DNA of 64,000 bases from Acanthaster planci (Eukaryota). Below, piece by piece: positions 7,889 to 53,168 of this stretch. Under the pieces are notes generated by a model. That model was not told where the DNA came from and did not search any database. It saw only the letters and a program-made list of their open reading frames with translations. Location: positions 682,961-746,960 of the forward strand of contig NW_019091358.1 of assembly GCF_001949145.1 (NCBI RefSeq). Direction: 5' to 3'. The position numbers and the translations under genes were made by a program. The stretch's first letter is position 1; every line of letters starts with the position of its first letter.

Positions 7889-8055
7889 TACGACGTATTC
7901 CAAGTACTAAACTCTAGAGTACTGGATATAGACAACTACCTCAGGGATAGCAGAGAGGAATCTGGGGAGGATCCCTACAAGAGACACGCCTTCAATCAAG
8001 CCAGGAGTGACAGTGTACCCATTGATAGAAACATTCCCGACACAAGAAACTTTAG
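7889..8055 (+). CDS. GALNT14/16: GALNT stem exon (YDVFQ...[29 protein letters not shown]), 167 nt
   Basis: ttgcag| acceptor, |gtggg donor, DPY-x3-FN and DR-x-PDTR stem motifs. Confidence 0.9.
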
Positions 8056-14000: not shown

Positions 14001-17000
14001 CCAAGTGGAAAGTTACATGTACAAATCTGAATGGCATCTTCTCCACCCTGGAAGTGCTGGAGAATCACTACTCTGAGATGGCTTGTTTCCAATTCCATCA
14101 GGGGAGGGTAACTTTGTAGGTAACCAGTTAGGGACTACCGATGATGCAAAACCATCCTTCCAGCGTTTACTCCAAACGTTTATCAAGACAGACCAACAGC
14201 ACCTTAAATCTTCAACGAATCCAGGCAAACAGAAACAATTATCTTCACTCACTTTATCCATGGACAATTCCGGAATGGAATCTTCTTCCCGACTTTGTCA
14301 AAAAACAACCCATATTGAATTCCTTCAGAACTTATTTAGATAATTAAATTACATGTTTGTGCAATGAATTCCAGTAAAAAAAATTGCTTACCCCTCAAGA
14401 TAATTACAGGTCAAACTGTACATGACACTCAATTATCATTGAAATGCATATACATACCATAGATGTTAGCGGTCGTATCTCCATCTTCCTTTAAGCTCTT
14501 CTCGTTGCCTTCTCTATCAGTCTTTCTACTTTCGCAACTAGTCGGGCCAAGGGTTTGCTCAACTGCACTTGCCTCTGCAGCCCTGGAGTTCCCTCCACCT
14601 TGTCCCTCTTGAGATGCATTCGATTTGCTTCTCGGACATTCAAACCGTGGTGGAGCTTCAGCTCCTTTTGTTGTACCTACATGAAGAATTTAGAGAATTC
14701 AATCTACCATTTGAAATTTAATTTGTCTAGAGACTCGTCGACACTCACAAAATAACTGCAGTGCTCACAAACGTAAATGGAAACGCCCTCAATGGTAGTA
14801 TATCAGAATTCATTTTTATATAAAAAGGATATTATAGGATATATGTCATAAAGTCACTATTATTGGCATGGATTTAGGTAGAATTGGATTTAGTTCAGCT
14901 TATACTACAGCAGTGTCTGAAACCAAGTCGCTTCTGAGTCGACTGAACGATTCCAAGTATCAATCGCCAGCTTGGGCTGGTGCGCCAGGTCACTCCTGAT
15001 TGTTTAAGATGTCAATCTCAATGCAGTTCTTGCCTTTCATTTGGTTTGGCGTGACTCTGGAATGCCTGTTTGAAACGAGGGCGTTGCATTTGTGTTTGTA
15101 AGTATTACTCTGATGTCTGTGTGTTTCATTGAGTCCAGTTCATGTCTGAAGCAAAACCTTAATCCACCTCGAGCAGAAATGCCCCCGTCGGTAGCCTTTG
15201 TTCGAGGCGCCCACGGCGAAAGTGATAGTCGAACAAGAGCGAGGATGGGAGCTGGAGGATACTAGTTTAAGCACCAAACCAATGCTCGAAGAAAGACTAC
15301 ACGACAAACCTCACACATGCCCGAAATAAAACGTGCATGCATATGTAGTAGCCGTGCTGTGTGTCGTGGACTGTGCGCGCCGCCGTAAGCGCCTTTGGAG
15401 CTTTGTTTCCAGTCGTTTATCTGAATTATTCAACATGCTAATGCTTATGAATTATTCACATTTCTCTGAACCAATCGTGTTTTGGGGGCTAAGTAGGCCT
15501 AGCATGTCTAAGCTAAGTCTCTATCAAAGCGCGTTTCAAAATGTAATCCCAACTGGCACCATGACAGCGTTACCTGCACGTGATAACCCCACCATAGGCG
15601 TTTATGCAGTAGCTGACAGATACATTTGACTAAAGGGGCCTTTCCACATGTCCATCAACACTTGCGTTGAGCGTTGTGTATCGCCCCGGGCGATTTTGAT
15701 GGCCGTACGCATGCAATGCACAGGTGTGTTATGTTAATGGAGTCGATTTCTATGTCCATAAAAGTGAAACGCGTGAACCCATTGTGCTCGCAAAGCACCC
15801 AAAAAACGTACACATGGAAAAGTGCCTTTACTCTGCATTTCTTTCGGTTCCTGACATAGTTTCTTTTCTTTCTAGGTAGGGATATGATTAATGTCAAGAA
15901 GAGGATTGTGTGATGTGAATTGACAAAAAACACTGCCTGCCAAAAGTTTCTACTCTAGTATGTGTTGATTTTATTGAAGAGAAGAATAACTTAAAGCGGA
16001 TATGGCTACACCGTCTTCAAAGTACATGTACATGTACAGTGCCCAGTGGGTAGCATCGCATGGTGAGATGTATGTTCATTACATCACTGTGTATTCCTTT
16101 CTCATCTGAACAGTGTGCTGAACAGAAGTCCTTCACATCTCATCCAGGAAATCATCCTAGTGGATGACTTCAGCGATAACCGTAAGTATACTCATCCTTA
16201 ATCAAGGCTTTGGCATTTTGTTTCAAATGAAAGGTGGATTGTGTTCTGGCTAGATTGCCAAAGACCAGCGAAATACGTGTGTATTTCAGGAAGATCAGTT
16301 TCACATTTTACCTGGCCTCGAAAGTTCTGTTTCTTTTTTCATGGTTATTGTGGGAAGCCACATGGAAGCATTCGGTATCAACATTTTTTCATCTACAAAT
16401 TTGTTTGCACTTGAAATGTAAATCAGTGAATCCGTAAAACATTGAAATTTTCATTCTGGGGACACGAGTATGTTCCTGTCCTTGATAAAGGCACTGTCGA
16501 CTATTTTTGTGTGCTCCTTTAAACCAATATTTGAAAAGTGAAATCCATCAAACCTTTATATAACAAGCCTCCTTTGGATGTGTTAGAATGTTCTGACTGT
16601 ACAATACATCACCAAGGGGTTGATATGGAGTGGCCACTTGCAGTGCATTGTAGGAAATGGTCAACAAATTTTATTTGCTGGCTGCACATGGGGAAATTAA
16701 AGTGTTCCCCTAAGTGTGTTTTTAGTTTGGGTTGAATATTCATAGTTTGGGTATGCCGAGTATCAGTTTTAATCCATTTTAAGATGGTTTTGTGAGTTGG
16801 TATGAAAGTTTTACTTAACAATTGTTAATAAAATTAACAAACCTGACAATTACCGTATGGATATGACTGCATCTGTCTTGAGAGTTAACATAGTCTGTGA
16901 TGATTGACAACCGTTTCCTCAGTACACACTGCCTAGCTATGTATGTGATGTAATTGCTATGCTACATGTATGTCTGCTTGGTAGCATCTAAGATGTACTG

Positions 17001-20000
17001 ATATAGCAAAAGTGAAATGACCCTTGACAAATATAAAAGCAGATGTTCGGAAGGAACTCTACTGAATTGGAAATACATGATAATGAGCTCTTCCTTTGAA
17101 AACATCTCTGGACTTCATTTTGGCACTTAAGCTGACTTTTGTTGTTTGTGAAGAGTGCCGTGCTTTGTCTGGAAGTGTTCTTTTTTGATAATTAGTTTCA
17201 AGACAGTGGTGCAAAATAACCGTCGATAGAATTAGAAAACTTGGAGGACACTTTCTGAATTTGTGTGGCAGTGTTACCAGATCTTTATTTTTCGTGATCA
17301 GAGTAATGTTTTTCCTTGGGGTTTATTGTTTAAGGCGCCTGAATCTGGAGGAGCCGGATTTTTTTGCACGTCTTCGGACAGTTCCAAAAGCAACGCTGAT
17401 CTGTTGGAGGTATTTCTACAGTCTCAAAAGCACACGTACTACAGCTTCAATGTGGTTTTCATCCAGACATTCATTTCAAAGCCGTGATTTTTACTCTGGG
17501 AGAAAGAGAGAGATTTTATGCTTGTGTTGATTTATAGCTGGGCACTTAATAGTACAGGCCCAGGGGAATGATGGGGCCCACAGACCTTTTACTAATCAAT
17601 TTTAATCAGAATGAGTCACAGCAGTGGAGAGCAGGGAATTCTACAGGCTAATAATACACACAGCCATGCCCTTGAAAGCACATTGGCCTACGCACTTTAT
17701 TTTGTCACTGGCTCTTTGACAAACCTCAACAAGGGGGGTATTGTGTACGCTTCAACAACACCTGTGTTAAGATCGGGATTGGGTTCTTTACTCTCTGAAT
17801 TTCCTGAAATTAGATTTAGTCCAATGAAAGAAATTTAAAGAGTATGAGGGAAAATTAAAGGAAACCATTGAGCCCAAGACACATTTTTTGTGTGTGTGAA
17901 AGATATTTTGCATATTATACATCTTCAAAGAGAAAATATGAAGTTTATAAAACATGAACATGTGCAAGCATGTAGTATACATTTTATATGTGATTACGAT
18001 GATGGTTTTAGCAGAAACCATGTTGTTAATTATGAATGACATCTGAAAGCTACCATAGATACATGTAGGATTGCCCTTACATCACCTCCAGAAAAAAAAA
18101 ACTGCTCGGGTGGAATAAACACATCATATCAGTTACTTTTTTGATGACGGTCAGGAAGGAACCCGATATGGTCATTTATCATCTCCCGAGTGTGGAGTGA
18201 GTTTTAATTAAATGTCAAAGTACACATGCGTGCGTAGTTCCTACCATGCCTCAGTTGCTCATGGTCATTGCTCTTGTGGCTAGTATTATAAGGAGATAAA
18301 GAAGAGCTCTACCAGTGCAAGATAGTTCCTGATTTTCCTGCGGGGACAGCAGAGATTGTTGCCAGCTCTCTGAAGTTTATCTTCAGGGAGTCAAGGTTGG
18401 GGACAAGATTGTGATCATGCGCTTTATTAGATTGCAGGCAAATCTATAATTTTCACACTCTGTTTTGAACCTCGGTAAGATGACATGTCTGAGACAGATT
18501 TATTTTGCAGAAGGCGTTATTGCCACTGATTTGTCAATTTACATTGTAAGCTTTCTCTAGCATTCCAGGTCCGACAAACAAGATGCAGTCTTTGAAAGAC
18601 AGTCGTTGAAAATCATTTCATTGGTTACTGCTCTACGTGTTTGGTCTGGAAACTGTCACTGGCAAGCATAAACGTTTTTCAAAGTGGGCTTTGCATGCTT
18701 TCCCGTGATTCGCATCTATTTCTGCTCCTTGTCGCTGGTGTAGCGCCTGCAGTGGGAAAAATTCAGTCAAATGTCATGTTGTCCCCCCCCCACAACACAA
18801 AAACGTCAGAATGAAATGGGAGAGGCGAATCAACGTCACAGACTGGTAGATGTGCAACTTAATAGCTGTTTGTCTTTCTTTGATCTGCCGTGTCTGAAAT
18901 TGTATGACCAAATCGTCCCAGATGAAATGCACCTTGTCAGTAGGTTGTCACAAAATTTGATCCGAGTGGTGACGGTTTCTGCAGTAAATACCCACCCACT
19001 CTTTTTGTTCATCCAATCTGCTCTTGAGTAGTCCAATCCTCCCAATTCACCTGTATTTGTCAGTTTCTGTATTCTTCAACTGAAAGGGTCAAGAGTGAAT
19101 ATAACAGGGTTGACATATTGACAACCCACCTTTTATGTCCATACATTTGGGTTGCTTGCTCCACACGCTATCTGAGTTTATGCATACGGCTTGAAAAACT
19201 CAATAACAATCCTGTCATCTGTGTCTTCTAAAATGTTCTCTCTCTGAAGTGTTTAGCTTATATATTTATGAACCTACCCAGCATTCCATCAGTTGGCAGA
19301 GAAGAGTTTAAAAAAACGGTTCAGTGAGTTCAGAAAAGTGCAACTGGCAGAAATGGATGTGAAGTGCAGTCTCGGTCATTTTCTGGTCCAGGGGAACTCC
19401 TGTTTCCCTTGTACTAAATTGACATTCCCATCGAGTTTGGAGCCCTCGTGCTGAGAGGATGTACATGTACGGTTCTAATTAGAAGCATATCCGACATGCA
19501 TAGGTTTGACTTGTGGTTCCACTTCTTGGACTTAGCCTGAAAACTTCCGCTACCATCAGATTGACATTAGCTTGGCACACAGTGGTGGCTAAATGTTTCT
19601 AAAGAGGGGGAAACAGCACTTTTATGTGTGTCTAGAGAGGTACACAAAGTGGGAGGGGACAATGAAAGGGGGAGGGCAGGGAGTAGGGGACTTGTTACAG
19701 TGCTGAATGATAAGAAACAGTTCTTGAAACCTACACATCCATTATATTGATGCAGTAATTCTGGGTTTAGAGGCTTAGTCATTCAGGTTTTGCTACTTCG
19801 TGCAAGGTGTACGTACATGTAATCATAGCCATTTTGGAGAGAACACAAGCCTTGTTATAATTATCGAAACCCTGAAAAGTTAAAGTATTTGTTGTAATTG
19901 TTACAACCTCTCGGCTGATGTTTCGTGGGTTAGCTGCTTTTTTTGTTTGTGTTTGTTTGATTCTTAGCTTTTTTTTGTTTTGAGCATCCTCTTTCCTGAT

Positions 20001-23000
20001 CTGTGCAAAATATGGATACCAAACTAATGAGGGTATGACTAATGAGAGTCTTGTACCCGATCCCTCTCTTACAGCTGAAGATGCTCAGATTCTCAGTCAG
20101 ATCCCCAAGGTGAAAGTACTACGTAATGACAGGAGAGAAGGTGAGTAATGCAACAGAGGAAGAGTTTTCATGTGGATGATGTCCAGGATTGCTCCAATTT
20201 CCATCAGGAACGCCTCAGCAAATTATTTGAGGAGTCTGGCTCACTTTTTCTCTGGGAAAAAAGTGAGGTCTTGTGGTTCTTCATTGCATTTATTTCAGGA
20301 TCTTGGGCATCACTTGAAATCAAAGTAGGAAAATTTCAGCTCTGCCTGAAAGCTGCAGGTCCCAGCATTATAGATCTGCCTCTCTAACCTAATTCACCCT
20401 TGTTGGACATGGGTCTGTAACTAAACCTCGGCTGGTCTGACTCTGCAGCAAAATGGAGGCATCCTGTTTGATGAAATAACCTCAACTTATAAATAGTATG
20501 ACAACAGCAACAAGAATAGCCAGGATGTGTTTTAATTAAACCCCATAATGAAGACTTCCTTCATAAAATTGCAAGGTGATTTTTGAAAATTGCTATCAAG
20601 GACCAGTACATGTACATGTATGTTTTTAGTGGTCCCTGTTTTGCAGAAGCACCACTGATAATTAAACTCTAAATCAATAATTATCTGTAGTTGCTCAAAC
20701 TTTGCCTGATAGTCAGCTCAGTGGGTGAACAGTAGCAAAGGCTGTGCCAAATACCCATATACATGTAGCCGAATACTTCATCGATCATCAAATATTCAAA
20801 TATTATTTTCCGAATTTGAATAGTCAAATGCAAACTTCATGAAAAGCTAGGGAGAATGTTCTTTTCTTTTAAATGAGAAAAATTGCACTGTGGAGGCTTC
20901 TTTCAAGCAGATTTAAACGAAAAGTGACAGAAATCTCAAAATGATTCAAAACTAGATTATTCATTGAAAAATGTAAAAGGACTAGAAATTTGCAATAAGG
21001 CAAGAAGTCTTGTTCATATCTTAAATCTTGCTAAATCGTGGCTGGAGATACTCCTAAATGTGAGAAGCTATTATAGTAATTATAATGTACAATTGTGTGC
21101 CTTATTGCAACTGACTTTGTATATGGTTTGTTCATCAACAATCTGCCGGTCAGGTACGACCAAATATTCAGATTTTCAATCAAATTGAAGGTTGAATATT
21201 CGAATAGTGAATTATTCGAATTGACTCAGCCCTAACTGTACCTTGGTTGGATTTGGTTGAACTTACAGAGGTGGAGGGGTGTTTTGCTGCCAAGAAACTG
21301 AGTGTCAACAAATTTTGATAAACTTTGGCATCTTGCTTTAGAAATAGAGACAGAAGAGAGAAAAACACTGGATTTGCAGATCCTTGATTTGGCACGTTGT
21401 TGACACACAGCTGTTTGAATCTATCATCTGTAGAGTAGTTTCCTCCTGGAAGGGCTCCACTTACAGTCCCACAGGAATCCACTTTTTATTACCCAAGGTA
21501 GCCAAAAAGTGATTCAAGCAATGGTACCTCTGGGAAACAGGTAAATCCTCTGTTAAACACCCTGACTTCCCCTTTCCCAGGTTGTTTGCAACACAGAGCA
21601 AGGACCACGTTTACAAGGAACTTGTAAATGTTTTGGTATTTTCCCACACAACGTCAGGCATAGATCAAAACTTCTAACATCGGTTTTATTACACATATCC
21701 GGTGCTGACATTTTTGTACTTAGTTTGTAAGCTCTACTCATTTGTTTGTTTGTTTGTTTGTTGGGTTGTTTGTTTGTTTGTTTGTTTTTTTGTGCTCAAA
21801 ATTGGAGTTAGACATCAAAATCATCAAACCAAAATTGAAAACCTCACTGGAGGCACTTAGATCCAGCATCTGCATAAAAGGGGAGAATGCTTGACATTTT
21901 TGGTACAAAAAAGGGGGCTACCCAAAATGGAGGTGAAAACTCTTGATCTTCATTGAAATTTCTGTCTTGAAAGTTATTAGTGAACCATGTGAGAGTGGAA
22001 GGACAAACTGGAAGAACGTATAAGTGAAAGAGGGAGGGAATAGATATGATGTACATGTATGCTCCAGATCTGCTACTGGTCAACATAAATTGTTTGTAGT
22101 TGCTTTTAGACCGATGTCTTATACTGGACAGTAGGCTTACTTGAATGTTAAGAAGGTCAATTTTAAAATCTAAACACCTGTCTGTGGTATGGGACATGCG
22201 TTCCAAGGATGGTGAGATGTTAGTGCTCGAGGTGAATAGTGCTCTTGAAAGATGCTTTAGGGTGTCTGACATGTTCCTTGCCCTCACAGCATAATGCTTG
22301 GAAACATTTTCTGAGAAGATGATGCTTAATGTATGTGGTTCTCGATCTCATTGAATTGTGTGCTGTTGTGCGATTTTCAGGTCTTATACGATCGCGAGTG
22401 CGAGGGGCTGATGCAGCCAGTGCCAGCATCCTCACGTTCCTGGACAGTCACTGCGAGGCAAACGTAGACTGGCTGCCTCCACTGCTGCATAGAGTTCACC
22501 AGGTCAGTCTGGAGTGAGAGACTATTAGGCTGAGGCACCCCCCCATGTCCACAGATGAAGCACTCTTCCGCCAAGGGTACAAGATTAAAAAGGCCCAGGG
22601 AAAAATTTCATACTATAAGCAGGATTAATCCCACCTTAGTCATGTCCTCAATCTTGCAGACGGTTTGTGATGCACACATTTTGTGTTACCTCGTGTATCA
22701 AGGGGGGTAGAGATATATTGGTTCTATATATAAAAAAAAGTCTGGTTGCTGATCTGAAGAATTGTAATTTGTATGTACTTATTCTTTCTGCAATATATCT
22801 TCTTGTCATTCTGTAAGATGTTTGGGTGCCTTGTGCAATTGTCAGGTTGAGTGATGGGCAGATTGAAACTTGCAGTGACAATCATTCTAGGTTTCCGTCA
22901 TTCGATGGGTGGTTTGAGTCCTTGAATAGTACATGTAGCTTACGTTAGAAAATAAATAGATTATGCTGGGAATCAAAATGTCAGGTCCTCTTATTTTTAA

Positions 23001-26000
23001 GATATGTCTGCATTTATTTCAGATCACTGAAGTCAGCATAAAGCAGTTTGAAGGAGTTTACATTTGCGATGATTTCCCTAAAGAGCGTTTTGTGATATGA
23101 CTAGGTAGTGCAAGTTGAACCATCCAGTTCATGCACATGTAACTACACTCCAATGAGTGTACAGTGGTTTTCCCATTGAGTATCGGGTAGATGTTATAGG
23201 CAAGGTATTTGCATCTTATGCCAAAATAGATGCTCGGTTGGATGTGCCAGAGCACAACTTCGGCAGCTGATGGACGCTGGGAATTGATCTGAGACCGATA
23301 GAATGTTGGAGGCCCTCAGGTGCCTCAGTGCCAAATGTCAGGCATAAGCCCCTGCTATGGAGCTGGCCAAATCTCTTGTTACCGCGATCAGATTGGGACA
23401 AAGATCTGACGTCAGCCAGGCGCAGCCAGGATCGGCAGGTACGTGCAAAGTGAGCGTGATGGCAAGGAGAAGGCGGGGGGGGGGACGTCAGTATCTGAAG
23501 CCGGGTGCCGAGCAAGCTGGACCTGGGATTAATCCCCCCCGTTCCTGATTTTTGAGGAAGAAAAGATGGCGTAGTTCTCTGGGGCCGGAAAGACGAAATA
23601 CCCCCTTCCCTACCCCGCCCCCAGTTCTGGGAAGATTAAAAAAAAAAAACTGGGCCCATAGCGGAGGCTTTGGAATGACTTTGCAGGTTCGAGGAAGACT
23701 GAGACCCACCTGCTAATTTATTTTGGATTTGGCCGATGTCCCTTAAATATCTGAAACTGCTATCAGTTTCCTGCATAGATGAGGAGGATCGAGGGACGTT
23801 TCTTGGCAGAGTGTCTGGGGAGTTCATATCAAGAGGTAGACAGTATGTCGAGCAGAAGTTGAGATTCTGTAGCCCAGACAGCATGGAATCCTGATGGACT
23901 GAAAGGATGTGATCACAGACCATCGGCTAGACCTGTTAACTGACTTGCAGCTTGAACCAAGATTGGCATCACCCGTTTCCCCTGTGGAGCCCACACTGGG
24001 GGACCCTTAGTGTTGCCCTAGTGAGTCTGTTTTTAGAGGCCCACCCCTTCTTTCTGATGATTGTTTGGAGGGGTGGGGCTGAAGATGATACCCCTTGCAC
24101 AACAGCAGCGATGATCAGTTACATGTAGGCCCACACTTGCACATTGCAGGCCGTACCTAATAAGTGGCAATGCTATATTTATGATTCATGCTGCAGGCTG
24201 TGTCTACAATAAGCTCAGGAAAAGGATAGTCTTGTCTTGTCAATCATTTTGTCTTACTGAGCACAACCTTTGAGTGGAAATGCAAGCTTCAAAAACCCTT
24301 CAGTTCATCCCATGTGACACTTCCCCATCCATGCATGTGAAGGGATATTGATGAAACCCCAGAACACGAGAAGCACTCACAGTAACAGCACAGTTCGGTC
24401 CATCGACTTGAGCAAGCAGTGCAGGCTCTGTACAAGCTAGACATTTATTTTGACGGCCGGGACCGTGATCAGGCTATTATTGCAGTCATTTGGACGTTAG
24501 TTGGTAAATGTTATGGGTGGATGGTGAGGGAGGCCTTGTTTGAACTTCATCAGCAGCTGTCTAGCACCCCACATGGCAGAGAGATGACTTTGAATTTCTC
24601 GGCCCAAAAGATCGGATTGACTTTCTTTTTTCTTCTCCTCTGTAGAAAGAAAACCTGTTCTCATGCAATTTCCTGTATTAAAGCTGTAGCTTCACCTTAG
24701 TGTTCGCTTTTAAAAGTATCAGAGGTGTGATAATTCAGCTTTTAGCTGATTTCTTGAGCCCTTTTTGTTTAGATGTTAACCCTGAATTTTGGCTTTTTGA
24801 ATAAACTATTATAAAGCACACGCATGGTTTGTTTATACACACCTGTTACACACCTTTGAGAGCCGAGTGCCAGTGTGTGAGTGTTGATATGTGTGGGTGC
24901 ATCATAGAGCCATAACAGTGTGGGATTCACGGTCTACAGATGGAGGCACCCAGAAGATTTGGCATTTCCAGTTTCTTTGTAAATGATCCAAGGCTCAGCA
25001 CTGACACTGGGCACAGTGTGGGTGTCACCATCCCTTTTAATCACCTTTGTAAAATTAGGCTTCATTGTGGATAAGAAAGAATGTTTCTCTGGTCTTTTGC
25101 CAGTTGTCTAGTCGCTCAAAGGTTCATCACAAGTCTTCTGCTCCCAAATCAAGTCATGGTTCAGGTGGACTTTGGCAGTCATTCTTGTCCCTTGGTACTT
25201 GGGACTGGATTACGTTACTACATAATGCCAAACTCCCCAAGGCTTTAAAATGTCAGTCATATATATACATGCACTGGGCCTATCTTGCATTTCCATGCAT
25301 TATTGACAGTCAAGGGTCGTTGTGCGGAATTTCATATTTACAATATTAGCATTCGCAACAGATAGAGCGCTCCTGTACTTGTGTCCTGGTTCCTGAATAT
25401 TTTCCAACAGCCATTCAAGTTATACAGTGATGATGGGGATAGCAGGCCTGCATTGAAGGGCATCTTTGCTTTGCCACAATGCAAAGAAGGAAATCCTATA
25501 GTCCTCCACAAGAACCCTCTGCCCAAAGAGTGAGAGGTTTTTTTTTCATCTTTCCTCCTGTTTTCTGTCTCTTTGCAGGATCAGCAAACCGTTGCGAGTC
25601 CCTCGATAGATATTATATCCATGCATACATTCAATTACACGGCAGCCATGACAGATCTCAGGGGAGGTACATACCGTATATCTATACATTCAAGCACTCT
25701 GTGTCTAAGAAAACTCATCACCAATGCCATTAACACACAACACGCCATAACAAACTGCATCCTCCAAACATAACCACTGCTCATAATACATGCACATCTA
25801 ATGCAAGGGACTGTTCTGTTCTAAGTCTGTCAGTTCTTTGGAATCAGTTCAGGTTGCTTTATTCACAGATAGAAGTACAAGGCGTAATGTTGTTAACAGT
25901 TCATGTACAGTGACATTTGTTTCATCAAGTATTATTGATTTGGGTTTGACTTTGAAGGGTCCCACCCTTCTTACCATGACATTCGCCATGGGGCCTGATT

Positions 26001-29000
26001 GCTAGAGATACTGGTAGGCATACTTGTATTTATGGGTTCGCATACGAAGAGTCTTAGCAGAAGTTATCTCCAGGCGCAAAAGATACAAATCAGTACCTAG
26101 CACCAGGTTGCTATGGACTGAAAGGCTTGCTTGTCATGGAGCCAGTCATCAACAGGTTCTTGGGCTTGAACTGTCATCCATGTGTCTGTACCCTGCTATT
26201 TAAAACTTAACTGGGAATTTTGGATTTTTTTCGTTTTTTGGTTTTTTTTTACGAACAAGGAGGTTTTATAATAATCAGGCCCCACAGAACCATGCTGTCT
26301 GTAGATAAACTTAGATTTCCTTTTCTGTGATCTCTGTTTAAGAACTTATTGTCGCAATTTAATAAACTTCCTTTGAATGACGTAGATTTACATGTACATA
26401 CACTTGCGGCTGGATGAAAAGGAAACTTGAATTTTGCCAGATAACTCAGATGTGTGAGAATTATCTGCTTCTTCAATTCGTTTGCTTTTCATTCAGTTTC
26501 TATAGATTACACTCTTTTTCAAAAATAATGTACGGTGTATATTTTGTTAATTTCATTTGTTTAAATCATCCTCATACTTACATATCTGTTTTCCATTTTT
26601 CTTCTTTCCCTCTGTTTGCATCTCGTCAACTTTGGGCAAATGCTCAACACTCATTTGTACAACTCATGATGCCATTTCCACCGTAACTGCTTCACGCTGC
26701 AAAACTCACGTTGTGAAACTCCTCAAACGCTGTCTGTTCCATCGTTGTGCCGTGAACTTATCCTGTGTCACCTCCATACCACGGAACTCATTAATTCTAC
26801 GAAACTCAATTTCACGTGTGTTCAAAACTCACCATGCTTGTAACTTCCTGTGCTGTGAATGGAATTACCCATTTGTGCCTGTCTGTGGGGATGTGGAACT
26901 CTTCTGAACTTGACACTCGCCTGGCCACCCACAACTACTCACAACTCACAACATGACAACTCAGGACAATACTCGTGTTGTGAGTCCTATCATCGATGTC
27001 ATCAACTTGGATTCCTTTAAATACATAGGTGCTTCTCCCGATCTTCGAGGAGGTAAAACTCAATCATTTCTCAAACACATTGATGGTGCATCGTTCTTTT
27101 TTATAATATTTCATATTGTCACCGACTGGGGACCAATTTAACCAGAACTTCACCTGTTTTATTTTATAACACCTCACCCACAGATTCTATATCTTGATTG
27201 GCCGAGAGGAAGTCACATGGCATTCGCTATGTTTGCCATCTTGCTTTTCATGGCCAAAAAAATATACCTGTAACAACCAAAATACTGTTCCTGTAGCAAC
27301 CAAAGAACTTTATTCATGCCCATTGGCATTATGCGCAAATACATACTCATGTGCACGTTCCGAGCATCCAAGTGCTATGGCTACAGAGCAGGGTTCAAAC
27401 ATCAGAGGTAGTTTGGAGAAGTACATGTACTAGTAATTTTTCAACCAATTTCTTATTCAAATAGACGTACCTATTATGATTAAATTAATCAGTTATTGCT
27501 TGAATTAAGCCCGAATCTGTGGGTGAGGTGTTATAAAACAAATATTGACTATATCCTGGTTCAGTTGAACTAGCCTCTCCCTCTGTGATCTACGGAGTGA
27601 GCATTCTGATTTCCCATGGCTTCACCTTGGGAAAATAAAGTGCTCTATGAATCACCTTGAAAAGCTAGTTTAACTACACTAGTTGAAGCAGTCAATATTT
27701 GTATGCTTCTCAGATATACATTCCATCTATCAATGCGCAGTCTTGTGAGTTAACCTGAAGTTGGTTTAGTTTAACTATGAGTTATTCTTTTTTGTGTCAG
27801 CTGAAATTGAGACTTGTCCCATCTGGAATCTTGTTTCAAATTACAAAAATCTGCACTCATTATATGAATCAATTACATGTTGACAGGCCTTTGCGAGATA
27901 TCTGTTTATGCACAGAAAACACTTGTCAGTTATGTCAACATGTCACCTCCACCATTTTATGCGATGCCAGAATCGCTTCATTTCAAATCTTTCCCTGTGA
28001 GGTGTGTTTGATTTCAGCTTGCTTTGCTAGCTGAGAACATTGCAAATTCAAGGTGACCAGGCGTTGACAGATTTATTCAAAGAAAAGCAAGTCATGGTGC
28101 TCATTTTTTTTATACAACGAAATCTGAGTGGAGAGGGTGTTTATGAGAGCAATCTATCCACCGTATCCTTTGGAGCTTGTGGAGCCATTTTGATGGAGGC
28201 TGAGCTCAAATTTCCAACTCCTTATTCCTCCACAATGAGATCCCAGATGACATTTCATGAGCTTTTTTATCACTTGAAGAAACCTCCTCATGAAAAAAAA
28301 GCATAAAATCACTTCAATCAGAGTGACGAACAGAAGTCTGGGATTCTCTTAAAGTGAGAATGGGGTAACATGAACCCTAAGAAAAATAGAGAGTCAATAA
28401 TCACAATGATCTCATCAGAACTCGGAGGCAGGTGCTTAGATCAGGTTTCAGAGGCAGGTTGTAAAGGCATTCAAGTACACGAGGTGGGTTTTTTGTTTGT
28501 TTTTGGTTGGGTTTTTTTTTCAGAGTTGCATGTTGGATGTACCCCTCTGAACCCATCAAAGGAGACATATTTTCAATCTTGATTTTGGCTGCTTCAGCTT
28601 CAAATGTAGAATTTTTTTTAAAGGTCTACCGGTATGTTAAAAAATGTGTAGGAAACATATATGCAAAGAAGTGTGAAGTTTCCCTTCTCTCAGACCAGAG
28701 AAATAATTTTGTCCAGGAATTTTCCGAAGGAGGTTTAGAGGAGAAAATCAGCAAAAATGAGGGATTCAGGATTACCCGCCCACAATTTTTGCACTGGATT
28801 GTGGAAATTTCTTTTTAATATATTTTGGCTATTGAAATTTTTTATTTCTCTCATTAAGTGCTATGGTTGATTGCTCCTGGCAAATGCATACATCTGTCTC
28901 AACTGCATGCTAAATAATAAAAAGGGGAAAGCCTGTCATAGTGTTGATGTTACAATTTGGCTTCTACCTGTATAGACCCACAGGTAGACTGATCCATGAA

Positions 29001-32000
29001 TCATTGTCTGGTCTAGCACACTTAGGAAGGAAATCCTCGGCATATCGAAGGTTCGGGTTCAGCAGCTTTCAGTGAGCCCTACCTGTGTATAACCTGGAGT
29101 CTGCCTGGTTATCTTTTTGTATTCATTAGAGTTTGGTTTTAAGGTACCGTACTCTGTAAGTTTTATTCAGGCTTTGAGCTAATTATAAGGTAGTGTGGCA
29201 TGCCCGCAAGTTTTTTCCTCTTTGGGTCTCACAACACTCTTTGAAATCTATGTAAGAACTTTCTACAAAGATTTTCAACGTGTACCTTGTAAAATATTTT
29301 AAAGGAGTTGGGCTGGTGGGTTACATGTGGGTGTTTTTATGCAATAATATCTGCTTTAGTGTCAGATCAGTTCTGAGAATACTACGAATGGTTGATATCA
29401 TGTTTCTGTAGGTTTTTTTTAAATTTTCTAAAGGAAAAAGCAGGGTTTTTTTTTAAATTAGAATTTCAAGAAATTATTGCAAGTCTAAGGAACTGAATCT
29501 TTTGAAGCTAATTACTAAACTGACAGAACTTTTTAAAGGTGGACTTAATCGTAATTACAGAGCAGCCAAAGAACATTCAAATTTTATTTTGCTAAAATTT
29601 CCAATCTAAACCTGATATGGACAAAAGTAGCCAGAATTTCAAAATCCCACTTAGAGTTGTATTCAGTGGTTTTAGATAAAGTGAGACTGTGACTGCTGCT
29701 TGCGACTGCTGCTCAAGGGTAATGTTGTTTTTTCCAAGGAGAAAAAGAAACATTGTGATTATTAAGTTTCTTTTTACTTTTTAATGTCATGGGGAAAATC
29801 GGACAGTTTTGAGCACCTTGACTTCCCGACAGGTCCTACAGACTGAAGTAATGTTATCCTACTTCATCAGTGCCACATCATTAATACCTTCTACACAGTT
29901 GGGTCAGTAAAATGTATGTACTTAGCGCAAGTACACCCATACTTACTCCATAGTTAAGGGGACTTCACACTCGTTGAAATAAAGTATTATGGAGACAGTT
30001 TTTATCCCCAGAACTCTGTCCCAAATTTGCTGACAAATTGTCCCCTAAAACTGAGGCTGGCCTGAGCGATCATGCCCTGTTTGTGAAAAAAGTGCAATTT
30101 ACATACATCCTTTCTTTAACGTGTTGAGTTGGTTTGGTCCGCAGGTTTTGATTGGAGCCTACACTTTAAATGGGAGCACATGCCAGTGGATCAGAGGTCA
30201 AGGAGAAAAAACTCTATCGAGCCAATCAGGTGGGTATGTTCATCCAATCAGCTGATGGGATCATTCCATGTAGGTTCATTAGGCACTCGCACCCAGTCAG
30301 ATAATTTCTTTAGAGAACACTTGCATACATTTCTACCCGTTTCCCAAATGTTGCTTCTTTGTCAGTTGTGTGCCACAGGCCATGACTACTTTACCCCCGC
30401 GGTGGAAAGCTATGCGTGGTGGTAATTTCATGCCAACACAATACAAAACACTGAAACTAAATGTTTTCTTCATTCCTATACTTCTAAACTACCAGCGTGT
30501 CTAATGCCCAGTGCAGGAGACACTTCTGTGACCTGCAAAAAGAACAGTTTCATCTCAACAGGGTTTCTTTCAGGTGTGCATGTTGTGCATGTAAACAGTG
30601 CTGTTGAGGAATGCAGTTTTCACCACCAACATCCTTTGTGAAGAGTGTATTAGTTTATGCAGAAGTGCCAAAAGCAACAGACAAAGAAAGTTAATGACCT
30701 TGCGGCGTTGACTCAGTTTTTGGCTCTGTTTCTGACATTTAAACTGCTTGTAGGCCAATACTTCTCAAAGAAAATTCCATGGTTTCTCTTCAGCACCTGC
30801 ATCCGAAAATATGCACAGAATGCATTTTCTGGTTTTAAATTATTTATCAAAATGTGATTTTTTTCATTGCAATTTTAGTCCGATCTTACTCATTAGTCTG
30901 GATGGCAGCGAGGTGGCAGCGGTGTAAAAGCCTTGTTAAGAAATTAACCCCCTCCCCCCACAATGTTAGACCAGCGCTTTGATTTCTAAAAATTCTCCCA
31001 ACTTTCAAACATTAAGTGTTCCCAGGTCTACTCTATACTTGTTTGCAGAAAATGAGGTCTTTGTACACCTACCTCATTATTTTTTAATTTAGAGTTTCCC
31101 GACTTGTTCAGACTCAGTGGGAAAAAAAAAGAAAAAGCACAGGCCTCCTTGAACTTTTCGAAAAGTTCTGATAAGAAACTGGGAATTACATGTACTTTAA
31201 TGTGGACTGAATAAAAGAATGTACCTCTGGGCTAGTACCACACAGTTTGATGCTACACTATCAAAATATGATTTCTGTTTTGAGTGAAAACTCCAAGGTC
31301 AGGGATGAAAATCAGTTGAAAGAAATCAGTAATTCTGATGTGCAGCTGAGGTTCCTTTATAATTTCACTGGTCTTCCAGCACATCAGTGTCCAGTGCCCA
31401 GTATTTTAGCCTAGAGGCAGGCACGGTAATCACATTCAAGGCAGAGCTCACTTATCCTGGCCACAGCCTTGGTCAAGCTTCCGTTGCCGACAAATCAAAT
31501 CATGCAAATTGTAAATATTTCCAGTCTCCCAGTAACCCACTTTCCTGGTCTCCACATGTGACCTTTGCACCGTAGTGATATGCATGACCTGCATTTGCCT
31601 TATCATATGCAGAGGCATAGCAACCAGAGGGGAGGGGGGTGCAGTGTGGCACCCTCCCCCCCCAAATAATTAATTCCAGTCGACAAATAGTGCATTGGTC
31701 TGCAAATGAATCTAAAATCGGTACATAAATAAAAGAAGTTGGCCATCAGCATTTCCCCTGAAGCATGAAATATACCATTTACATTTTACACAAGTTACAC
31801 AAGTTGGTAAATTGCATGACACACCCCCCCCCCAGAAAATGCCTTCACTACACTCCTGATCATATGCAATATTGTCAATGCATGTCACTCCTTTCTAGAT
31901 CAAGTTGTGGACAATTCTGGTACATTTACATGTACTCAGTGCCCTTTCATGAACATATATGTAATTACAAACACGCAAGTGCTCAATCTTATATGGCGTG

Positions 32001-35000
32001 CCTGGTGTGTGGATTTTTTAGTGAGCAATCATTCAAATTTCTTGTAGCTGCAAACTGTGCACCAGTTCTTGTAAGATCAAATGTTTATTTGGACAAGGAA
32101 ATCATGCTTAAATGGCCCCAAATGAATCATTTACTGCAATACCAACATGTTAAAATGCCACTTTTCCCACCACTTCACACTCAACGTGCGTATTGTCCCT
32201 CATGACATGCAGTGAATCTAGATCTACTGGTGGGTCCACTGTACTTTTGTCCAGGGCATAAAACTAAAATAGGCTCACCAAAATGGTGTACAGACATCAG
32301 GAGATATTGTTAGGGTATAAGTGCCGTGAGAGTGCTTGGTTTGGGGTATAATCCACTCGGTGTCAGTTTCCTGCCAAGCTACTTTGGATGTTTCTTTCAG
32401 ATGAAACTGAATCTTGCCATGATAGTCAATTGGCTGAATGACCTGCTGAAATCTAATAATGTTTGAGAGTGCAGACAGGAGGGAACCTGCTGTGCTTGGA
32501 ACTTGAAACAAAATAAATCAAGTTGGCAATCAAGATCTTTTTCTGGGGTTTGTGAAAAAGGAGAAGATGCCATAAATATGACATTGATGTTAGATAATAA
32601 CCCTTTTGCAAATTAAATTTGAATAAAACCTGATACTCCGAGTTCTTCAAATTCCCTTGAACATATAACAGGTTGAATTCTTCATAGTGGAGACACTGTT
32701 GCTATGCCTCATGTTTCGGGGCATGCTTTTGCTTAGTTACCTAACCCTCATTGCATTGAGTTCGACTCCATGAAAGAGCGACGTCTGAAACCAAGTTGCT
32801 CTGGTGTCGTTCCGAGCACCTTCAAGTGACGATCTTTCGCCTGCTGGCACTCCTGGTCACTCCTTATTGTTTCAGACATTCAACTTTTGCTGTACTTAAT
32901 TCAGAATTTCCTTTTAATTTGGTTCGGTGCCACTCTAAAGTGCCTGTCTGAAACGGATGTAAGAAATGCCTTGCACCAATACACTTTTTTCAATGGATAA
33001 GAAGGGCACAGAGGAACCAGTCCATTTCCAGAGATGGTGGCAGCTATGCTAAGTTTGCCCAGAAACACGAGGTATAACAGCATCTTTAGTCTAGGAAATT
33101 CAAATTGTTATGTTGATGTGCAGTCAGATAACTCAGTGTACTAGATTTTATTCAGATTGTAGTCTACTCTCAAAAGGCTTATTGAAGGCTTTTTATTACA
33201 GGCCTCCGTCAGTGCAGTGTAGAACATAAGGCTTTCACTTTAATACATGTAAGAAACAATAGTGAGTCTTCCAGAACCGGTTTGAGAAATTTGGGGAGCG
33301 GTGAGGGAGCGGAGACCTCTAGACTGAAGTTTGGTCCATTGCCTCCTCTCCTTCCTTTGTAGAATTTTGCCTGCTACTTGTTTGAGTAAAAAGAATCTCC
33401 AGTGTGTGACGTTTATCATGATAATTGGTGTATTTTGTAGTTGTTGCATTGATTTAGTTGGCTTGGTGCATAGGGTCAGGCAGTGGAGGAAATTAAAAGA
33501 GTCACCAGACAGAAGTTAAATAAACAAAGAATTCCAAATAGGATGGGCTCATTTGAATTGCTCAAATCTATCCCGGAGTGGAAATATTTGGCCTCCTTCA
33601 CATTTTTCAATGACAATATTTTGAAGGGAAATCAGCTATTTTAAATTTAATTTCTGGAAATGGTTTTGCAACTAATGGGGGCCATACAGCAGTGAAGATT
33701 GTGGACTGGGTTTGACCATTGATTTATGGGGGATGTATTTAAAGTTGAAGCTGAAATTCCAGTGGCTTGTTGATTTCCATTTTAACAGCATTTGCTTGGG
33801 GGGGGAATTGTCTGTCACTGTTTAAAGAGGATTTCATTTCTTTCAATTATTTTTACTAATTTCATTTACGGCTTGTTTTCTTTAACAAAAAGGACACCCA
33901 TGATTGCAGGTGGACTGTTTGTCATAAATAAAGGCTGGTTCAACAAGCTCGGGAAATACGACACCGAGATGAACATATGGGGAGGGGAAAACTTTGGTAA
34001 GTGCCGGTACCAGACTGAGCCTCTGCTCTCTCTCTCTTGAGGGTCTAACCAGCGTGTGCATTTGGGAATTTTAGTCATCTTTCGGAAGTGATTAATAATC
34101 TGCATTTGAAATGTGCATTCCAAAGACATTTGACAGAGCGGAAGTTTATGATCCATCCAAACATTCCTGTCAATGCTACGTGCACGATAAACCAACGGGC
34201 ACATTCTTTCAGCATTCCATCAGGTTGTGGTGGCTTTTTTGGTTAGTTGAAGACAGGGGTCCCTTGTGAAATCAGAAGCTTACCTTTAAAATTGAAAGCT
34301 GGTAAAAATCCTCTGCAGATCACTTGGGAAAAAAGCCTGCGTTGGCTGCTTGTCTCTCAGTTCTCTCCACTGACTAATTTATTGTTATTTGGGCAACTGG
34401 GCTGACCCAAAGTCTAAGATGAAAAAGCTGATAGAGAACTATAGTCCTGCCAGGAGATGATTAGCATAAAACATGCATGGTTTCTTGAATAACGGGAGAA
34501 ATTTCAAGCGTTCTGAATGCAAGTGCTAACCACTTGCTGAGTGGAATTACATGTAACCTCTTTTTTTTTTTAATTAGTGCTGTGGACTGGTTTAGGAAAA
34601 TTTCTGAAAGTCAACTTTGAGTGTCACCTTCACTGAAACAAGAGATTTTAATGTTTTTAAACAGTTCAACAGTTTGTTGGTGATGAGTGGCTTGATTGAT
34701 GTTCAAGGCTATTCATGGTTTCAAAGGCAATTATTTGTGTACAAATTCATTTACATTTATGTGAGGCAAATTTCTCATGAGGCAAATGAAAATGAAGCAA
34801 TGAGGCAAAGGAATATTTTTTTCAAAAATGGAGTGTTGAAGTTGCATGCAGTTGAACTGTAAACAGGAAGATAATTATAAAGTGGGGATGGAGGATACTT
34901 TAATATTTATTGTGTGGTTGTATAATTATTCCTCAGTTATGGTCAGTAGAGGGCAGTGTGCCAGGTAACTTTGATATTGTTCAAGATATTCCAAGTATCT

Positions 35001-38000
35001 TTACCCCCGAAAAAAGTTTGCTTTCTAAGATTCATGGGTGGACTTAGGATAGTTTGGTTTTTCAACATCAAGACTGTAAGTTCTAGAGGCCAGTAACTGA
35101 AAAGCAAGCTATCTTTATTGACTTTGATTACTTTAGGAAAGTTACAGGAAACGAATTAGTGACTCGCCGAATATCACTCAAAGCGAGAAATTATATTTCT
35201 TTTCACTTTTGTGTTCTTCCAGAAATTTCTTTTCGCGTGTGGCAGTGTGGTGGTAGCCTGGAGATCATACCCTGTAGTCGAGTGGGCCATGTATTCCGCA
35301 AGAAGCATCCGTACACTTTCCCTGAGGGGAATGCCAACACCTACATCAGGTACACTGCCCCCTCATTGACATGTATTCGGGGCAGGAACATACACTTTAA
35401 TGCTCATAATGAGATACAGAAGGTTAATTTGCCGTACCTCATACGTATTCATGATCAAGAGCCAAATTCTCAGTCGTCTGTTCACCATCATATGTCAGTC
35501 ACTATTTTGCTGTTGTACATGCTAAGATCCACGCATGGGCATCAATCGATGGGGGACGGGGGGCATGTCCCCCACCCCCCACTTAATACTATGTCAACTG
35601 TCCCCTCCCCACTTTTTTTCCAAAATCTAAATGAAAATGTATAGCTTGCAAAAGCATTTGTTAAAAAACTGGCTAAAATAGCCAAGAATTGCGTCATATC
35701 ACACCAAAGAGCATTTATACTCCAAAATTTTCCGCGGCCCTTGAGCAGGCCCTGGACTCCACGCCGGTCACATCTTCGCTCTTTGCACTCGCGTTTGTTC
35801 TGATCAGGGCTATGGCCCCCCTTCCCCACTTCTCAAAACGGAGTGACGCCCCTTGGACACTCGCACCCTCAGAAATGTTCTCCCCAGGAGCAGTTCAGTG
35901 ACACTGTAACTAGGTGAAGCATGCATATGCAAGCTATGCATGTTTGCAGTACCTGCTGCTACATCTGGCTCTGACTTGCCAGTTTATCCCAGCAAGCACG
36001 GTGGTTGAGTGGTTAAAACGTCTGCACTAGTAGGGAGGAGGTCATGGGTTTGAGTCCAACCTGAATGAGCTTGTGAATTTTTTTGCAAGCTCCCGGACAA
36101 ACACTGAGTATATTGAATATACCTTGGTGTACATGTAAGGGCAAAACCTGTCGTTACAAAAATGAACACAAATGAATACGCAAAAGCAAGTTGCACTGGA
36201 GAAGGCTTAGCTGCCTTTCCCTTGCTACTGACATTTGATGGCAACGGAATATATCTGAGGTTTGGTAAAACAAATATAACAATTTATTTCAGGTGGATTG
36301 GAAATTGGCAAACTGGCTCTTCCAACATCCCAGGGAGATAACACTGACTGACCACCTTCAAACCATCATAACCTTGTTACATCAGTTTATTGACCTCATA
36401 TTCGATTGGACCCAAGTGCACCCTTCAGCAGTCCGTTTTGTAGTTTTGCACAGAAGACATTAATCCGTCATGCTTTTAAATATTCTTGGTACAAGTGTTG
36501 TTTAAGGGATAGACACCTGCAAGCAAAACCCACACTGCACTTGGGCGTGCATATTAGGGTTGTGCCAAATATTTGATCGATCATCGAATATTTGAATGTT
36601 ATTTTCCAAATTTGAATATTCAAATGCAAAATTCCTGAAAAAGAAGGGAGAATTTTCTTTTGTTTTAAATGAGAAAATTTGTTTTAAGCAGATTCAAATG
36701 AAAAGCAACAGAAATCTTACAATTCAAAAAGTAAATTATTCATTAAAAATTCAGAAGGAATAGAAATTTTCAACAGGGCAAGAAGTAATGTTCGTCTCTT
36801 AAATCTTGCTAAATCGTGACTGAAGATATTATGTTGATTATAATTTACAATTGTGTGTGTTAATGCAACTGATTTTGTATATGGTTTAATCATCAACAAT
36901 CTGCTGATTTAGAAGATCGATTCAGATATTCGATCGAATTGAAGGTCGAATATTCAAATAGTGAATTATTCGAATTAACTCAGCCCTAGTGCATATTGTG
37001 CTAGTTGAACCTTGGTATATCAGGAAGCGTAGTTATTGGTATACAGTGAGCAGTTGGTGCCTAAAAACCCAAACATTGAAACAGGTAGGCATGGCACAAA
37101 TTTTACCCTGGTTGTTTTCCTTTTTTCTTTTGCACTGGCATGCAGAGTTCAGGTAGGTTCCTTTTTTATGTTTTATTTATTTTTATTTTTTTAGCGGGAG
37201 CAAGGACAATACTGTTACCCTGATGACGCAGACAGGTTGAGTAGGAAATAAATCTCTCTCAAGCGTTTGTCAAGCACTTTAATAAACTCACCAACAATAC
37301 CATCCACCTGCCAGGCGACCGGTCAATCTGCACATTCCTGTCTTGCTTACAGTCTGGTGAGAAAGACTCAGACAAAACCCTGTTCATCTCTGAACTCCGC
37401 TGAGGAGCTCAGCCTCATCGTAGCCTGTCATGGCTCCAGTGAGACAGGGTTCAAGTCTGGTATCCTGACCCACATTAATCACTGTTCTGTCTAGCTTATC
37501 CATCAATCTGTCTCCACCACAGCAGGTGTATTTGGCTTTGGCAATTATACTTAAATTAAAGCATATCAGGCAACACTTCAGTATAGTCCTTCACTGAGCT
37601 ATACTTTTACTTTTGAGCTGTCCTACAAGCTGGAAAACCAGTGTTTTTTGACAGTGCTTTCCCAAAGTATTGAATGGGAGTAATTGTATGTGTTCATCAG
37701 AGAGATGGCAATGTGGATCATTTTAAGAGTGATTTGACTTTAAAAGACTTAAAGAAAAGAGCATACCAAAGAGCCTCCTTAATTCACAGGTGTTGCAGTA
37801 ACGCGCGGAGTGACACATTTGCACAGTGTTTTGAACAGCATTGCCCATTGGAGCAAATCATTTACGCTGGCTTTGATTTCTGTCTGCAGAAATACGAGAC
37901 GAACAGCGGAAGTGTGGATGGATGACTACAAACAGTACTTCTACAATGCTAGGCCTTCAGCTAGGGGAAAACCATTTGGGAAGTAAGACACTCATTTATG

Positions 38001-52775: not shown

Positions 52776-53168
52776 ATGGCTTCTGGAAATGACACAGCCG
52801 GCGCTTTGTCAGTTCGCACATCTGCTGCCGCTTCATCAACAAATCCTGTGACCGAAGACCCGCCTTACCATCTTCTCTCACAATCTACCGGTACCGCCAG
52901 CGCTTGGACTGGCGGCCTGAGCAAGGAAGCTCCCAGCTCGGTGAATGGGCCAGATGACATCTTCACCCCGAGCCAGTACACGTGGAATCTGATCCTCGGC
53001 ATCACCGCGTCCGTCATCTTCGTGCTGGTCACGGTGGCCGCGCTGTTCGGGCTGATAGCGTTCAAGCGGTACATGAGGAAGAGGAACCGGACCCTGAGCG
53101 CAGACACCGGGGTCTTCTCGCCGAGAAGGGGCAGCAAGGCCGGACTGGACATGATCGATAATTCAGTG
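52776..53168 (+). CDS. First coding exon (131 codons) of an uncharacterised single-pass membrane protein
   Basis: aaaATGG start context, GC-rich codon usage, Ser/Thr/Pro-rich N-terminus with an NDT sequon, hydrophobic segment LILGITASVIFVLVTVAALFGLIAF followed by KRYMRKRNR, consensus donor |gtgagt at 53169 (phase 0). Confidence 0.8.

What the first reader, a model, noticed from the sequence alone, without database searches (positions are those of the whole stretch)
25579..27052. Duplicated, probably mutually exclusive exon pair that swaps part of the GalNAc-T catalytic domain
Seen: two exons 1.3 kb apart have identical length (88 nt), identical phase (0-1), intact splice sites and open frames, yet share only 15/30 aa ([62 protein letters not shown]). 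Including both shifts the frame to a TAA at 27018-27020, and skipping both gives a TGA early in the 33893 exon, so only one-of-two transcripts are productive. Known: this segment lies between the DxH motif and GFDW, and in GalNAc-T2-type structures it borders the acceptor-peptide groove. Drosophila PGANT9 switches specificity by alternative exons, but in the lectin domain. Inference: one gene makes two O-glycosylation-initiating enzymes with different peptide preferences through a catalytic-domain cassette. Copy A also adds an NYT sequon. I am not aware of this being described for GALNT14/16 but cannot search.
Basis: partly seen in the sequence, partly recalled or inferred. Interest (0 to 1): 0.88.

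Follow-up and report, generated by a model that had tools for sequence, protein, structure and literature searches.

The report
Starfish glycosyltransferase swaps substrate-groove exon
A starfish gene for an enzyme that starts mucin-type sugar chains on proteins has two old copies of one small exon, each seen spliced in on its own, so it makes two enzyme versions that likely differ in which proteins they modify, a known trick in this enzyme family but at a different spot.

Summary
The window holds the crown-of-thorns starfish GALNT16-like gene. Exons A (25579-25666) and B (26965-27052) are 88-nt homologues, and only one-of-two keeps the frame. RNA shows all four productive joints; no A-to-B or skip joint is listed, at low depth. 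RefSeq already holds both isoforms, and Asterias has the same pair. The A copies group across species.

The cassette equals human GalNAc-T2 244-272, which includes peptide-groove and +3-pocket residues. Different specificity is likely but untested.

New here:
- B has a 457-nt AG-free zone with a far pyrimidine tract, suggesting a distant branch point.
- Exon choice seems to differ between samples.
- Two acorn worms swap the same segment for a different, 4-residue-longer copy.

This scan noted such a pair before in a sea urchin and a three-way cassette in an octopus (unchecked here). Verdict: new variant of a known kind.

The parts
25579..25666 (+). Exon A: derived copy (RefSeq isoform X2), residues 219-247, equal to human GalNAc-T2 244-272
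   Evidence: AG/GT and translation; exact in P0121; joints 22502>A and A>30145
26965..27052 (+). Exon B: ancestral-type copy (RefSeq isoform X1)
   Evidence: exact in P0001; joints; 21-26 of 29 identical to the B-type segments of Patiria, Asterias, sea urchin, acorn worms, tunicate and frog
26506..26962 (+). 457-nt AG-exclusion zone before exon B, rich in YCAY (23) and AACTC (9)
   Evidence: longest AG-free run in the window, next 137 nt; motif counts against shuffles
26571..26619 (+). Candidate distant branch points (A at 26574 or 26580) and pyrimidine tract 26586-26619, 384-390 nt upstream of B's AG (inferred, not mapped)
25549..25578 (+). Conventional strong pyrimidine tract and acceptor of exon A
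   Evidence: 87% pyrimidine at -30..-3
22381..22502 (+). Upstream constitutive exon with the DxH (DSH) motif
   Evidence: joint 20140>22381
30145..30229 (+). Downstream constitutive exon (GFDW...)
7889..20140 (+). Upstream coding exons 7889-8055, 9902-10003, 16114-16181, 20075-20140; the first coding exon (residues 1-43) was not found in the window
33893..42154 (+). Remaining coding exons 33893-33996, 35223-35349, 37890-37982, 38688-38771, 39034-39166, 40966-41085, 42002-42154 (WGGEN, flexible loop, ricin-type lectin domain, stop)

Best explanation
An old tandem duplication of one 88-nt exon lets the starfish GALNT14/16-like gene splice in either copy A or copy B, giving two 546-residue enzymes that differ at 15 positions and that likely prefer different peptide or glycopeptide substrates. 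Shown: both copies are spliced between the same neighbours, only one-of-two keeps the frame, A is kept in Asterias with five positions not seen in other family segments, and the segment covers T2 residues 244-272. Inferred: B is the default form. It is spliced through a distant branch point, and the 380-nt AG-free stretch after it would carry repressor sites (YCAY/AACUC clusters, perhaps for a KH-domain protein); where B is repressed, A with its strong ordinary acceptor is used. Rare both-in or both-out messages would be removed by nonsense-mediated decay. A keeps the donor gatekeeper I253 and the groove residues A266 and L270 but changes 252, 255, 259, 264, 265, 267 and 268, which would reshape the loop that forms the +3 pocket.
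For: Frame tests. Joints in raw RNA: three runs, A 6 in and 5 out, B 4 in and 6 out, plus one contig each in X1, four runs, B 15 in and 28 out. RefSeq pairs differ only in the cassette in Acanthaster (15 of 546) and A. amurensis (13 of 561). A copies form one group, 98/96; pairing A with B by species is rejected, p-AU 0.0014. A is 21 of 29 identical between the two starfish, against 67-98% for the 13 other modelled exons. T247, S/A252, H259, T264 and M267 occur in 0 of 63 distinct other 29-residue segments. V255 and L270 contact peptides in T2 (PMC4432651). T12 V259/L268/N270/Q275 form a +3 GalNAc pocket, with N270 = T2 A266 and W262 = T2 M258 (PMC6789641). AG-free zone 457 nt against 14-62 nt at the 13 other true acceptors listed. 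YCAY 23 against 14.6 and AACTC 9 against 1.6 in 1000 shuffles, none reaching the observed count. Same-study samples differ: X11 A 7: B 4, X15 A 0: B 24. Two acorn worms swap the same segment.
Against: No activity data. A266 and L270 are unchanged, and V255I is common in the family (74%). The two AlphaFold models have the same fold and leave loop 242-259 below pLDDT 50, so they do not separate the forms. Read counts are small. All listed A joints come from the lay at 88% likeness and none from the lay at 94%, so the sample contrast is post hoc and confounded with the setting; tissues are unknown. No YCAY excess downstream of A (8 against 7.9). The candidate branch point is about 908 nt from A's donor, too far for steric exclusion. 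A is less conserved than B (21 against 25 of 29). Conservation of the AG-free zone in other species was not tested.
Confidence: 0.65

Rival explanations
1. Both forms are real and selected, but A changes the rate, stability or donor handling, or is a muted enzyme, without changing which peptides are preferred.
For: A replaces a residue that is V or I in 63 of 63 other segments (T2-252, next to the donor gatekeeper I253; PMC13591258) with S/A, and the near-invariant D259 with H. In PGANT5, splice differences outside the flexible loop altered activity regardless of substrate (PMC12776162).
Against: The changes at 264-268 fall in the loop whose T12 equivalent sets +3 glycopeptide preference. The acorn-worm alternative copies remodel the same loop.
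Confidence: 0.22
2. The choice is unregulated or only loosely exclusive: the two acceptors compete at a fixed ratio, and decay of frameshifted messages creates the look of mutual exclusion.
For: Both-in and both-out products have early stops. Steric exclusion is not possible at about 908 nt. No convincing pairing elements were seen among 56 inverted repeats, 25 shown. Joints under 3 reads are not listed.
Against: X8 and X15 gave 16 and 24 B joints with zero depth in the bins over A, whereas X11 gave 7 A joints and 4 B joints (Fisher on starts 5:3 vs 0:16, p=0.0013). Long AG-free zones mark regulated exons (PMC1431707).
Confidence: 0.1
3. Exon A is a decaying duplicate that is spliced now and then as noise.
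For: A has the long branch (0.6-0.8 changes per column). A joints were not listed in 4 of 7 raw runs. A-type proteins were not seen for Patiria or A. rubens.
Against: A is open, same length and 72% identical in a starfish of another order (orders recalled), with shared derived residues, while third positions between A and B are near saturation (10 of 29). A was the main form in X11.
Confidence: 0.03

Closest known systems
RefSeq isoform pairs: Acanthaster planci XP_022094288.1 (X1, B) / XP_022094296.1 (X2, A); Asterias amurensis XP_071796160.1 / XP_071796164.1
   Same: This very gene and exon pair, and its starfish orthologue, are already in RefSeq annotation.
   Different: Annotation only. 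I found no paper describing the pair, its regulation or its function.
Drosophila PGANT5A/5B (PMC12776162, preprint; read parts 1-4 of 7)
   Same: Alternative splicing inside the GalNAc-T catalytic domain gives two enzymes with different peptide preference and tissue bias.
   Different: T1-type gene; the swapped part is the catalytic flexible loop plus helix-turn-helix (residues 398-457), not the strand and loop after DxH. The flexible-loop exons are single-copy in this window.
Drosophila PGANT9A/B (PMC6115407, passages)
   Same: An exon of about 30 residues is swapped and changes substrate preference by tissue.
   Different: Lectin alpha repeat, acting by charge. A and B here differ little in charge (K+R 1 vs 3, D+E 3 vs 4).
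GALNT13 / pgant5 / gly-5, and gly-6, tandem exon substitutions (PMC9741552 one passage; PMC4165533 passages)
   Same: Duplicated, mutually exclusive exons recur in GalNAc-T genes of vertebrates, flies and nematodes.
   Different: Other paralogues. The worm exons are multiples of 3 nt and partly excluded by very short introns; here the exons are 3n+1 and 1.3 kb apart. I did not map the domain position of the worm exons.
Distant-branch-point exons such as alpha-tropomyosin exon 3 and PTB exon 11 (PMC1431707, passages)
   Same: Long AG-free zone with a pyrimidine tract at its 5' end, 100-400 nt from the acceptor, before an alternative exon.
   Different: Here the branch point is only predicted and is too far from the upstream copy to enforce exclusion sterically; the paper's data are from vertebrates.
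Acorn-worm isoform pairs: Glandiceps XP_077994659.1 / XP_077994667.1, Ptychodera XP_070577514.1 / XP_070577515.1
   Same: They differ only in the same segment, one copy B-like.
   Different: The alternative copy is 33 residues, 12-16 identical to starfish A. One shared origin with A is weakly rejected (p-AU 0.025, 29 columns). Their genomic exons were not seen.

Membership tests
Polypeptide GalNAc-transferase (GT27) | GT-A domain with DxH, distal His and WGGEN | tested here: met
   DSH 199-201, WGGEN 305, GHVF in both isoforms; PF00535 and PF02709; best structure match human T2, 57% identity
Polypeptide GalNAc-transferase (GT27) | C-terminal ricin-type lectin domain | tested here: met
   PF00652, residues 422-536
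Polypeptide GalNAc-transferase (GT27) | Transfers GalNAc to Ser/Thr | not testable with these tools
   needs an enzyme assay
GALNT14/16 subfamily (versus GALNT2) | Groups with T14/T16 in a tree that includes T2 | tested here: inconclusive
   Best hits are named T14/T16 and the GFDWSL(H/R)FxW motif is shared (136 of 137), but identity to T2 (57%) is like that to vertebrate T14/16 (52-58%). No full-length T2 was held, so no such tree was built.
Mutually exclusive tandem duplicated exons | Homologous, same length and phase, adjacent | tested here: met
Mutually exclusive tandem duplicated exons | Each copy spliced to both neighbours in RNA | tested here: met
   four joints, all GT..AG
Mutually exclusive tandem duplicated exons | Never both and never neither | tested here: inconclusive
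   No such joint listed in 8 runs, but rows need 3 reads, 4 rows were hidden, and such products carry early stops
Distant-branch-point exon class | AG-free zone of 150 nt or more with a pyrimidine tract at its 5' end, not a repeat | tested here: met
   457 nt; tract 27 of 30 pyrimidines at 26586-26619; only a 27-nt tandem repeat at its 3' end; no second copy in the window; genome-wide repeat status not tested
Distant-branch-point exon class | Branch point mapped at the far site | not testable with these tools
   needs lariat reads or mutagenesis
Tropomyosin-type steric exclusion | Branch point very close to the upstream copy's donor | tested here: not met
   about 908 nt
PGANT5A/B-type switch | Swapped exon encodes the catalytic flexible loop | tested here: not met
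   the cassette is T2 244-272; flexible-loop exons are single
PGANT5A/B-type switch | Isoforms differ in peptide kinetics and tissue | not testable with these tools
   only a post hoc sample difference

The most novel reading that the evidence does not exclude
The exon after the DxH motif is a repeatedly duplicated specificity module: starfish and acorn worms (and, by unchecked notes of this scan, a sea urchin and an octopus paralogue) each keep a standard copy plus one that rebuilds the +3 pocket loop. One gene would then toggle between a T2-like peptide enzyme and a form with a different, possibly glycopeptide-reading pocket, under a distant-branch-point, KH-protein switch like those studied in vertebrates, while vertebrates kept a single copy.
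Probability: 0.25. Interest if true: 0.7.

Novelty: new variant of a known kind. Interest (0 to 1): 0.46.

Why it matters
GalNAc-T specificity has no simple consensus and is set by non-conserved groove residues. Natural isoform pairs that are identical except for this 29-33 residue segment, in four species, are ready-made swaps for testing what the segment does, complementing PGANT5 (flexible loop) and PGANT9 (lectin loop). The 457-nt AG-free zone offers a testable invertebrate case of distant-branch-point control of an exon pair. It does not reveal a new kind of system.

Tried and rejected
No whole genome is held for the window, so no genomic comparison or dN/dS was possible.

Searches for more A-type copies found nothing: shorter proteins, a 31-residue query against cluster representatives (0 hits, including no self-like hit, so it is uninformative), and degenerate A and B patterns in metagenome contigs.

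No listed holder run was on record as RNA; the evidence comes from laying runs with the same species label.

Docking-selector pairing: no convincing element among the inverted repeats shown; the stretch from the branch point to B's acceptor folds no better than shuffles (z +1.8). YCAY enrichment downstream of A: not found.

The NYT sequon as the point of exon A: rejected, absent in Asterias. A charge switch as in PGANT9: little charge difference.

AlphaFold models of both isoforms: no usable difference. No complex prediction was run.

My first family count kept 132 of 177 proteins and dropped the two acorn-worm variants because it demanded 29 residues; searches corrected this. Of the other dropped rows, 39 lacked the next exon, 1 lacked DxH and 3 looked like mis-spliced models.

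Among 60 further vertebrate isoforms, the 57 with the segment showed no alternative copy; only 15 members each of the two large clusters were listed.

Look-ups of earlier findings by sequence and by place gave nothing.
Full report
OBSERVATION. They share 14 of 29 encoded residues and 49 of 88 nt, with 10 of 29 third positions, so the duplication is old. A model of the window's coding exons (7889-42154) gives a full frame with A alone or B alone, a TAA at 27018-27020 with both, and a TGA at 33901-33903 with neither. No other exon of the gene has a second copy in the window. The first coding exon was not found in the window.

IDENTITY. The exons match Acanthaster planci GALNT16-like. RefSeq X1 (P0001) carries B exactly and X2 (P0121) carries A exactly; they differ at 15 of 546 positions, all in the cassette. 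Both have the GT-A motifs and a ricin-type lectin domain; the closest solved structure is human GalNAc-T2. Placement with T14/T16 rather than T2 rests on best hits and a shared motif, not on a tree.

RNA. Eight runs with the same species label were laid: seven of the nine raw-read runs listed, each read to about a fifth, and one contig set. In one search (88% likeness) joints into A were 1/0/5 in X7/X10/X11, out of A 1/2/2, into B 2/1/1 and out of B 1/2/3; contig set X1 had one contig for each of the four. In one search (94% likeness; X8/X12/X14/X15) joints into B were 8/1/1/5 and out of B 8/0/1/19. No A joint was listed there, and depth over A was zero in X8, X14 and X15 and about 0.1 in X12; four rows were hidden. 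No A-to-B or skip joint was listed in either call, but rows need 3 reads and such messages carry early stops. X11 and X15 belong to one study: 5:3 against 0:16 by read starts, Fisher p=0.0013 (in-joints alone 0.015, out-joints alone 0.036). This pair was picked after seeing the data and laid at different settings, and tissues are unknown, so it is a hint of regulation.

CONSERVATION. Asterias amurensis has the same pair, differing at 13 of 561 positions. A is 21 of 29 identical between the two starfish and B 25 of 29; the 13 other exons range from 67 to 98%. In an 18-row tree of the segment the A copies join (98/96), and grouping A with B of one species is rejected (p-AU 0.0014), so the duplication predates the split of these starfish (different orders, some 200 million years or more; recalled). 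Proteins held for Patiria, A. rubens, Diadema, Saccoglossus and Clavelina show only B-type segments, which does not show absence. Five A positions (T2 numbering T247, S/A252, H259, T264, M267) occur in none of 63 distinct other 29-residue segments from 189 proteins. The NYT sequon is not in Asterias A.

ACORN WORMS. Glandiceps and Ptychodera isoform pairs are identical except for the same segment. One copy is B-like; the other has 33 residues, His at T2-264 and four extra residues in the 266-270 loop. These alternative copies join each other (97/97) and share 12-16 residues with starfish A. A single clade with A is weakly rejected (p-AU 0.025), on 29 columns and long branches, and pairing the two Glandiceps copies is not rejected (p-AU 0.22), so the number of origins is open. 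Their exon structure is inferred from the protein pairs only. None of 57 further vertebrate isoforms with the segment shows a second copy.

WHERE IT SITS IN THE ENZYME. By the alignment the cassette is human T2 244-272. V255 and L270 are named as peptide contacts in T2 (PMC4432651, one passage). I253 is a donor gatekeeper (PMC13591258, passages). In T12, V259, L268, N270 and Q275 form the catalytic-domain pocket for a +3 GalNAc; N270 equals T2 A266, and W262, equal to T2 M258, steadies the flexible loop (PMC6789641, 12 of 17 passages). By the same offset (my inference) 259, 268 and 275 equal T2 255, 264 and 271. So the segment is a documented determinant of specificity. A keeps 253, 266, 270 and 271 and changes 252, 255, 257, 259, 264, 265, 267 and 268. 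AlphaFold gives both forms the same strand 222-231, short strand from 238 and an unresolved loop 242-259, which neither supports nor weakens the case.

A has a strong ordinary acceptor (87% pyrimidine). B's last 30 nt are 43% A and 17% T, and no AG occurs for 457 nt upstream. This is the longest AG-free run among 3827 AGs on the + strand (next 137 nt; minus strand 184 nt); other acceptors of the gene have 14-62 nt; 10000 base shuffles average 16 AGs and none has zero (the e2 row there used a start one base off and is left aside). A 27-of-30 pyrimidine tract lies at 26586-26619, just after branch-like words at 26571 and 26577. This fits the distant-branch-point class, whose zones hold regulatory elements; the same paper warns that repeats can mimic it (PMC1431707, 12 of 21 passages). 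The zone is not a tandem array apart from 27 nt at its end, has no copy in the window and drew few reads, unlike nearby repeats. It holds 23 YCAY (shuffle mean 14.6) and 9 AACTC (1.6), neither reached in 1000 dinucleotide shuffles; ten motifs were tested in eight regions, and the AACTC/ACTCA words were chosen by eye. YCAY clusters are Nova sites (PMC12445529, passages); that upstream binding represses, and that ACUCA resembles STAR-protein sites, is recalled. No excess was found downstream of A. The far site is about 908 nt from A's donor, so steric exclusion does not apply.

MECHANISM. Shown: two homologous exons, each spliced alone, conserved, in a groove-lining segment. Inferred: B is the default and is repressed through its long zone in some cells, A is then used, and frameshifted products are degraded. 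Also inferred: the two enzymes differ in substrate preference. Confidence 0.65; muted or rate-only A 0.22; unregulated competition 0.10; dead duplicate 0.03.

WHAT IS KNOWN. Drosophila PGANT5A/B differ in the catalytic flexible loop and in peptide preference, and are tissue-biased (PMC12776162, parts 1-4 of 7). PGANT9A/B switch in the lectin domain (PMC6115407, passages). Duplicated exons are recorded for GALNT13, pgant5 and gly-5 (PMC9741552, one passage) and for gly-5 and gly-6 (PMC4165533, passages). Six searches (listings only, and one search showed 20 of 1168) turned up no paper on this exon pair; the library lacks most subscription papers and no supplements were read. Earlier notes of this scan report such a pair in a sea urchin and a three-way groove exon in an octopus paralogue; I could not test them.

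VERDICT. Real, expressed and conserved; already annotated as isoforms; a new variant of a known kind. Interest 0.46.

Noticed in passing
window 39034-39166 (lectin alpha repeat): Against T2 in the alignment the alpha sugar site keeps its Asp but has Ile, Glu and Asp where T2 has Tyr, His and Asn; it is also altered in Asterias, Patiria and Diadema. The lectin site may be degenerate, which would put more weight on the catalytic domain for specificity.
   Followed up: partly
window 27158-27542: 30-nt inverted repeats 325 nt apart (97% complementary), 106 nt downstream of exon B, with many multi-copy reads: likely a MITE-like element.
   Followed up: no
window 24720-24800, 20867-21235, 32600-33142: Intronic stretches that attract many partly matching RNA reads: multi-copy repeats.
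   Followed up: no
window 52776-53249: Open frame of 158 codons with a hydrophobic stretch followed by basic residues, like an exon of a single-pass membrane protein; no Pfam match.
   Followed up: partly
window 26551-26904: 118-codon stop-free frame inside the AG-free zone, probably a by-product of the missing AG.
   Followed up: no
proteins P0165, P0166: Acorn-worm isoforms carry a 33-residue alternative version of the same segment.
   Followed up: yes
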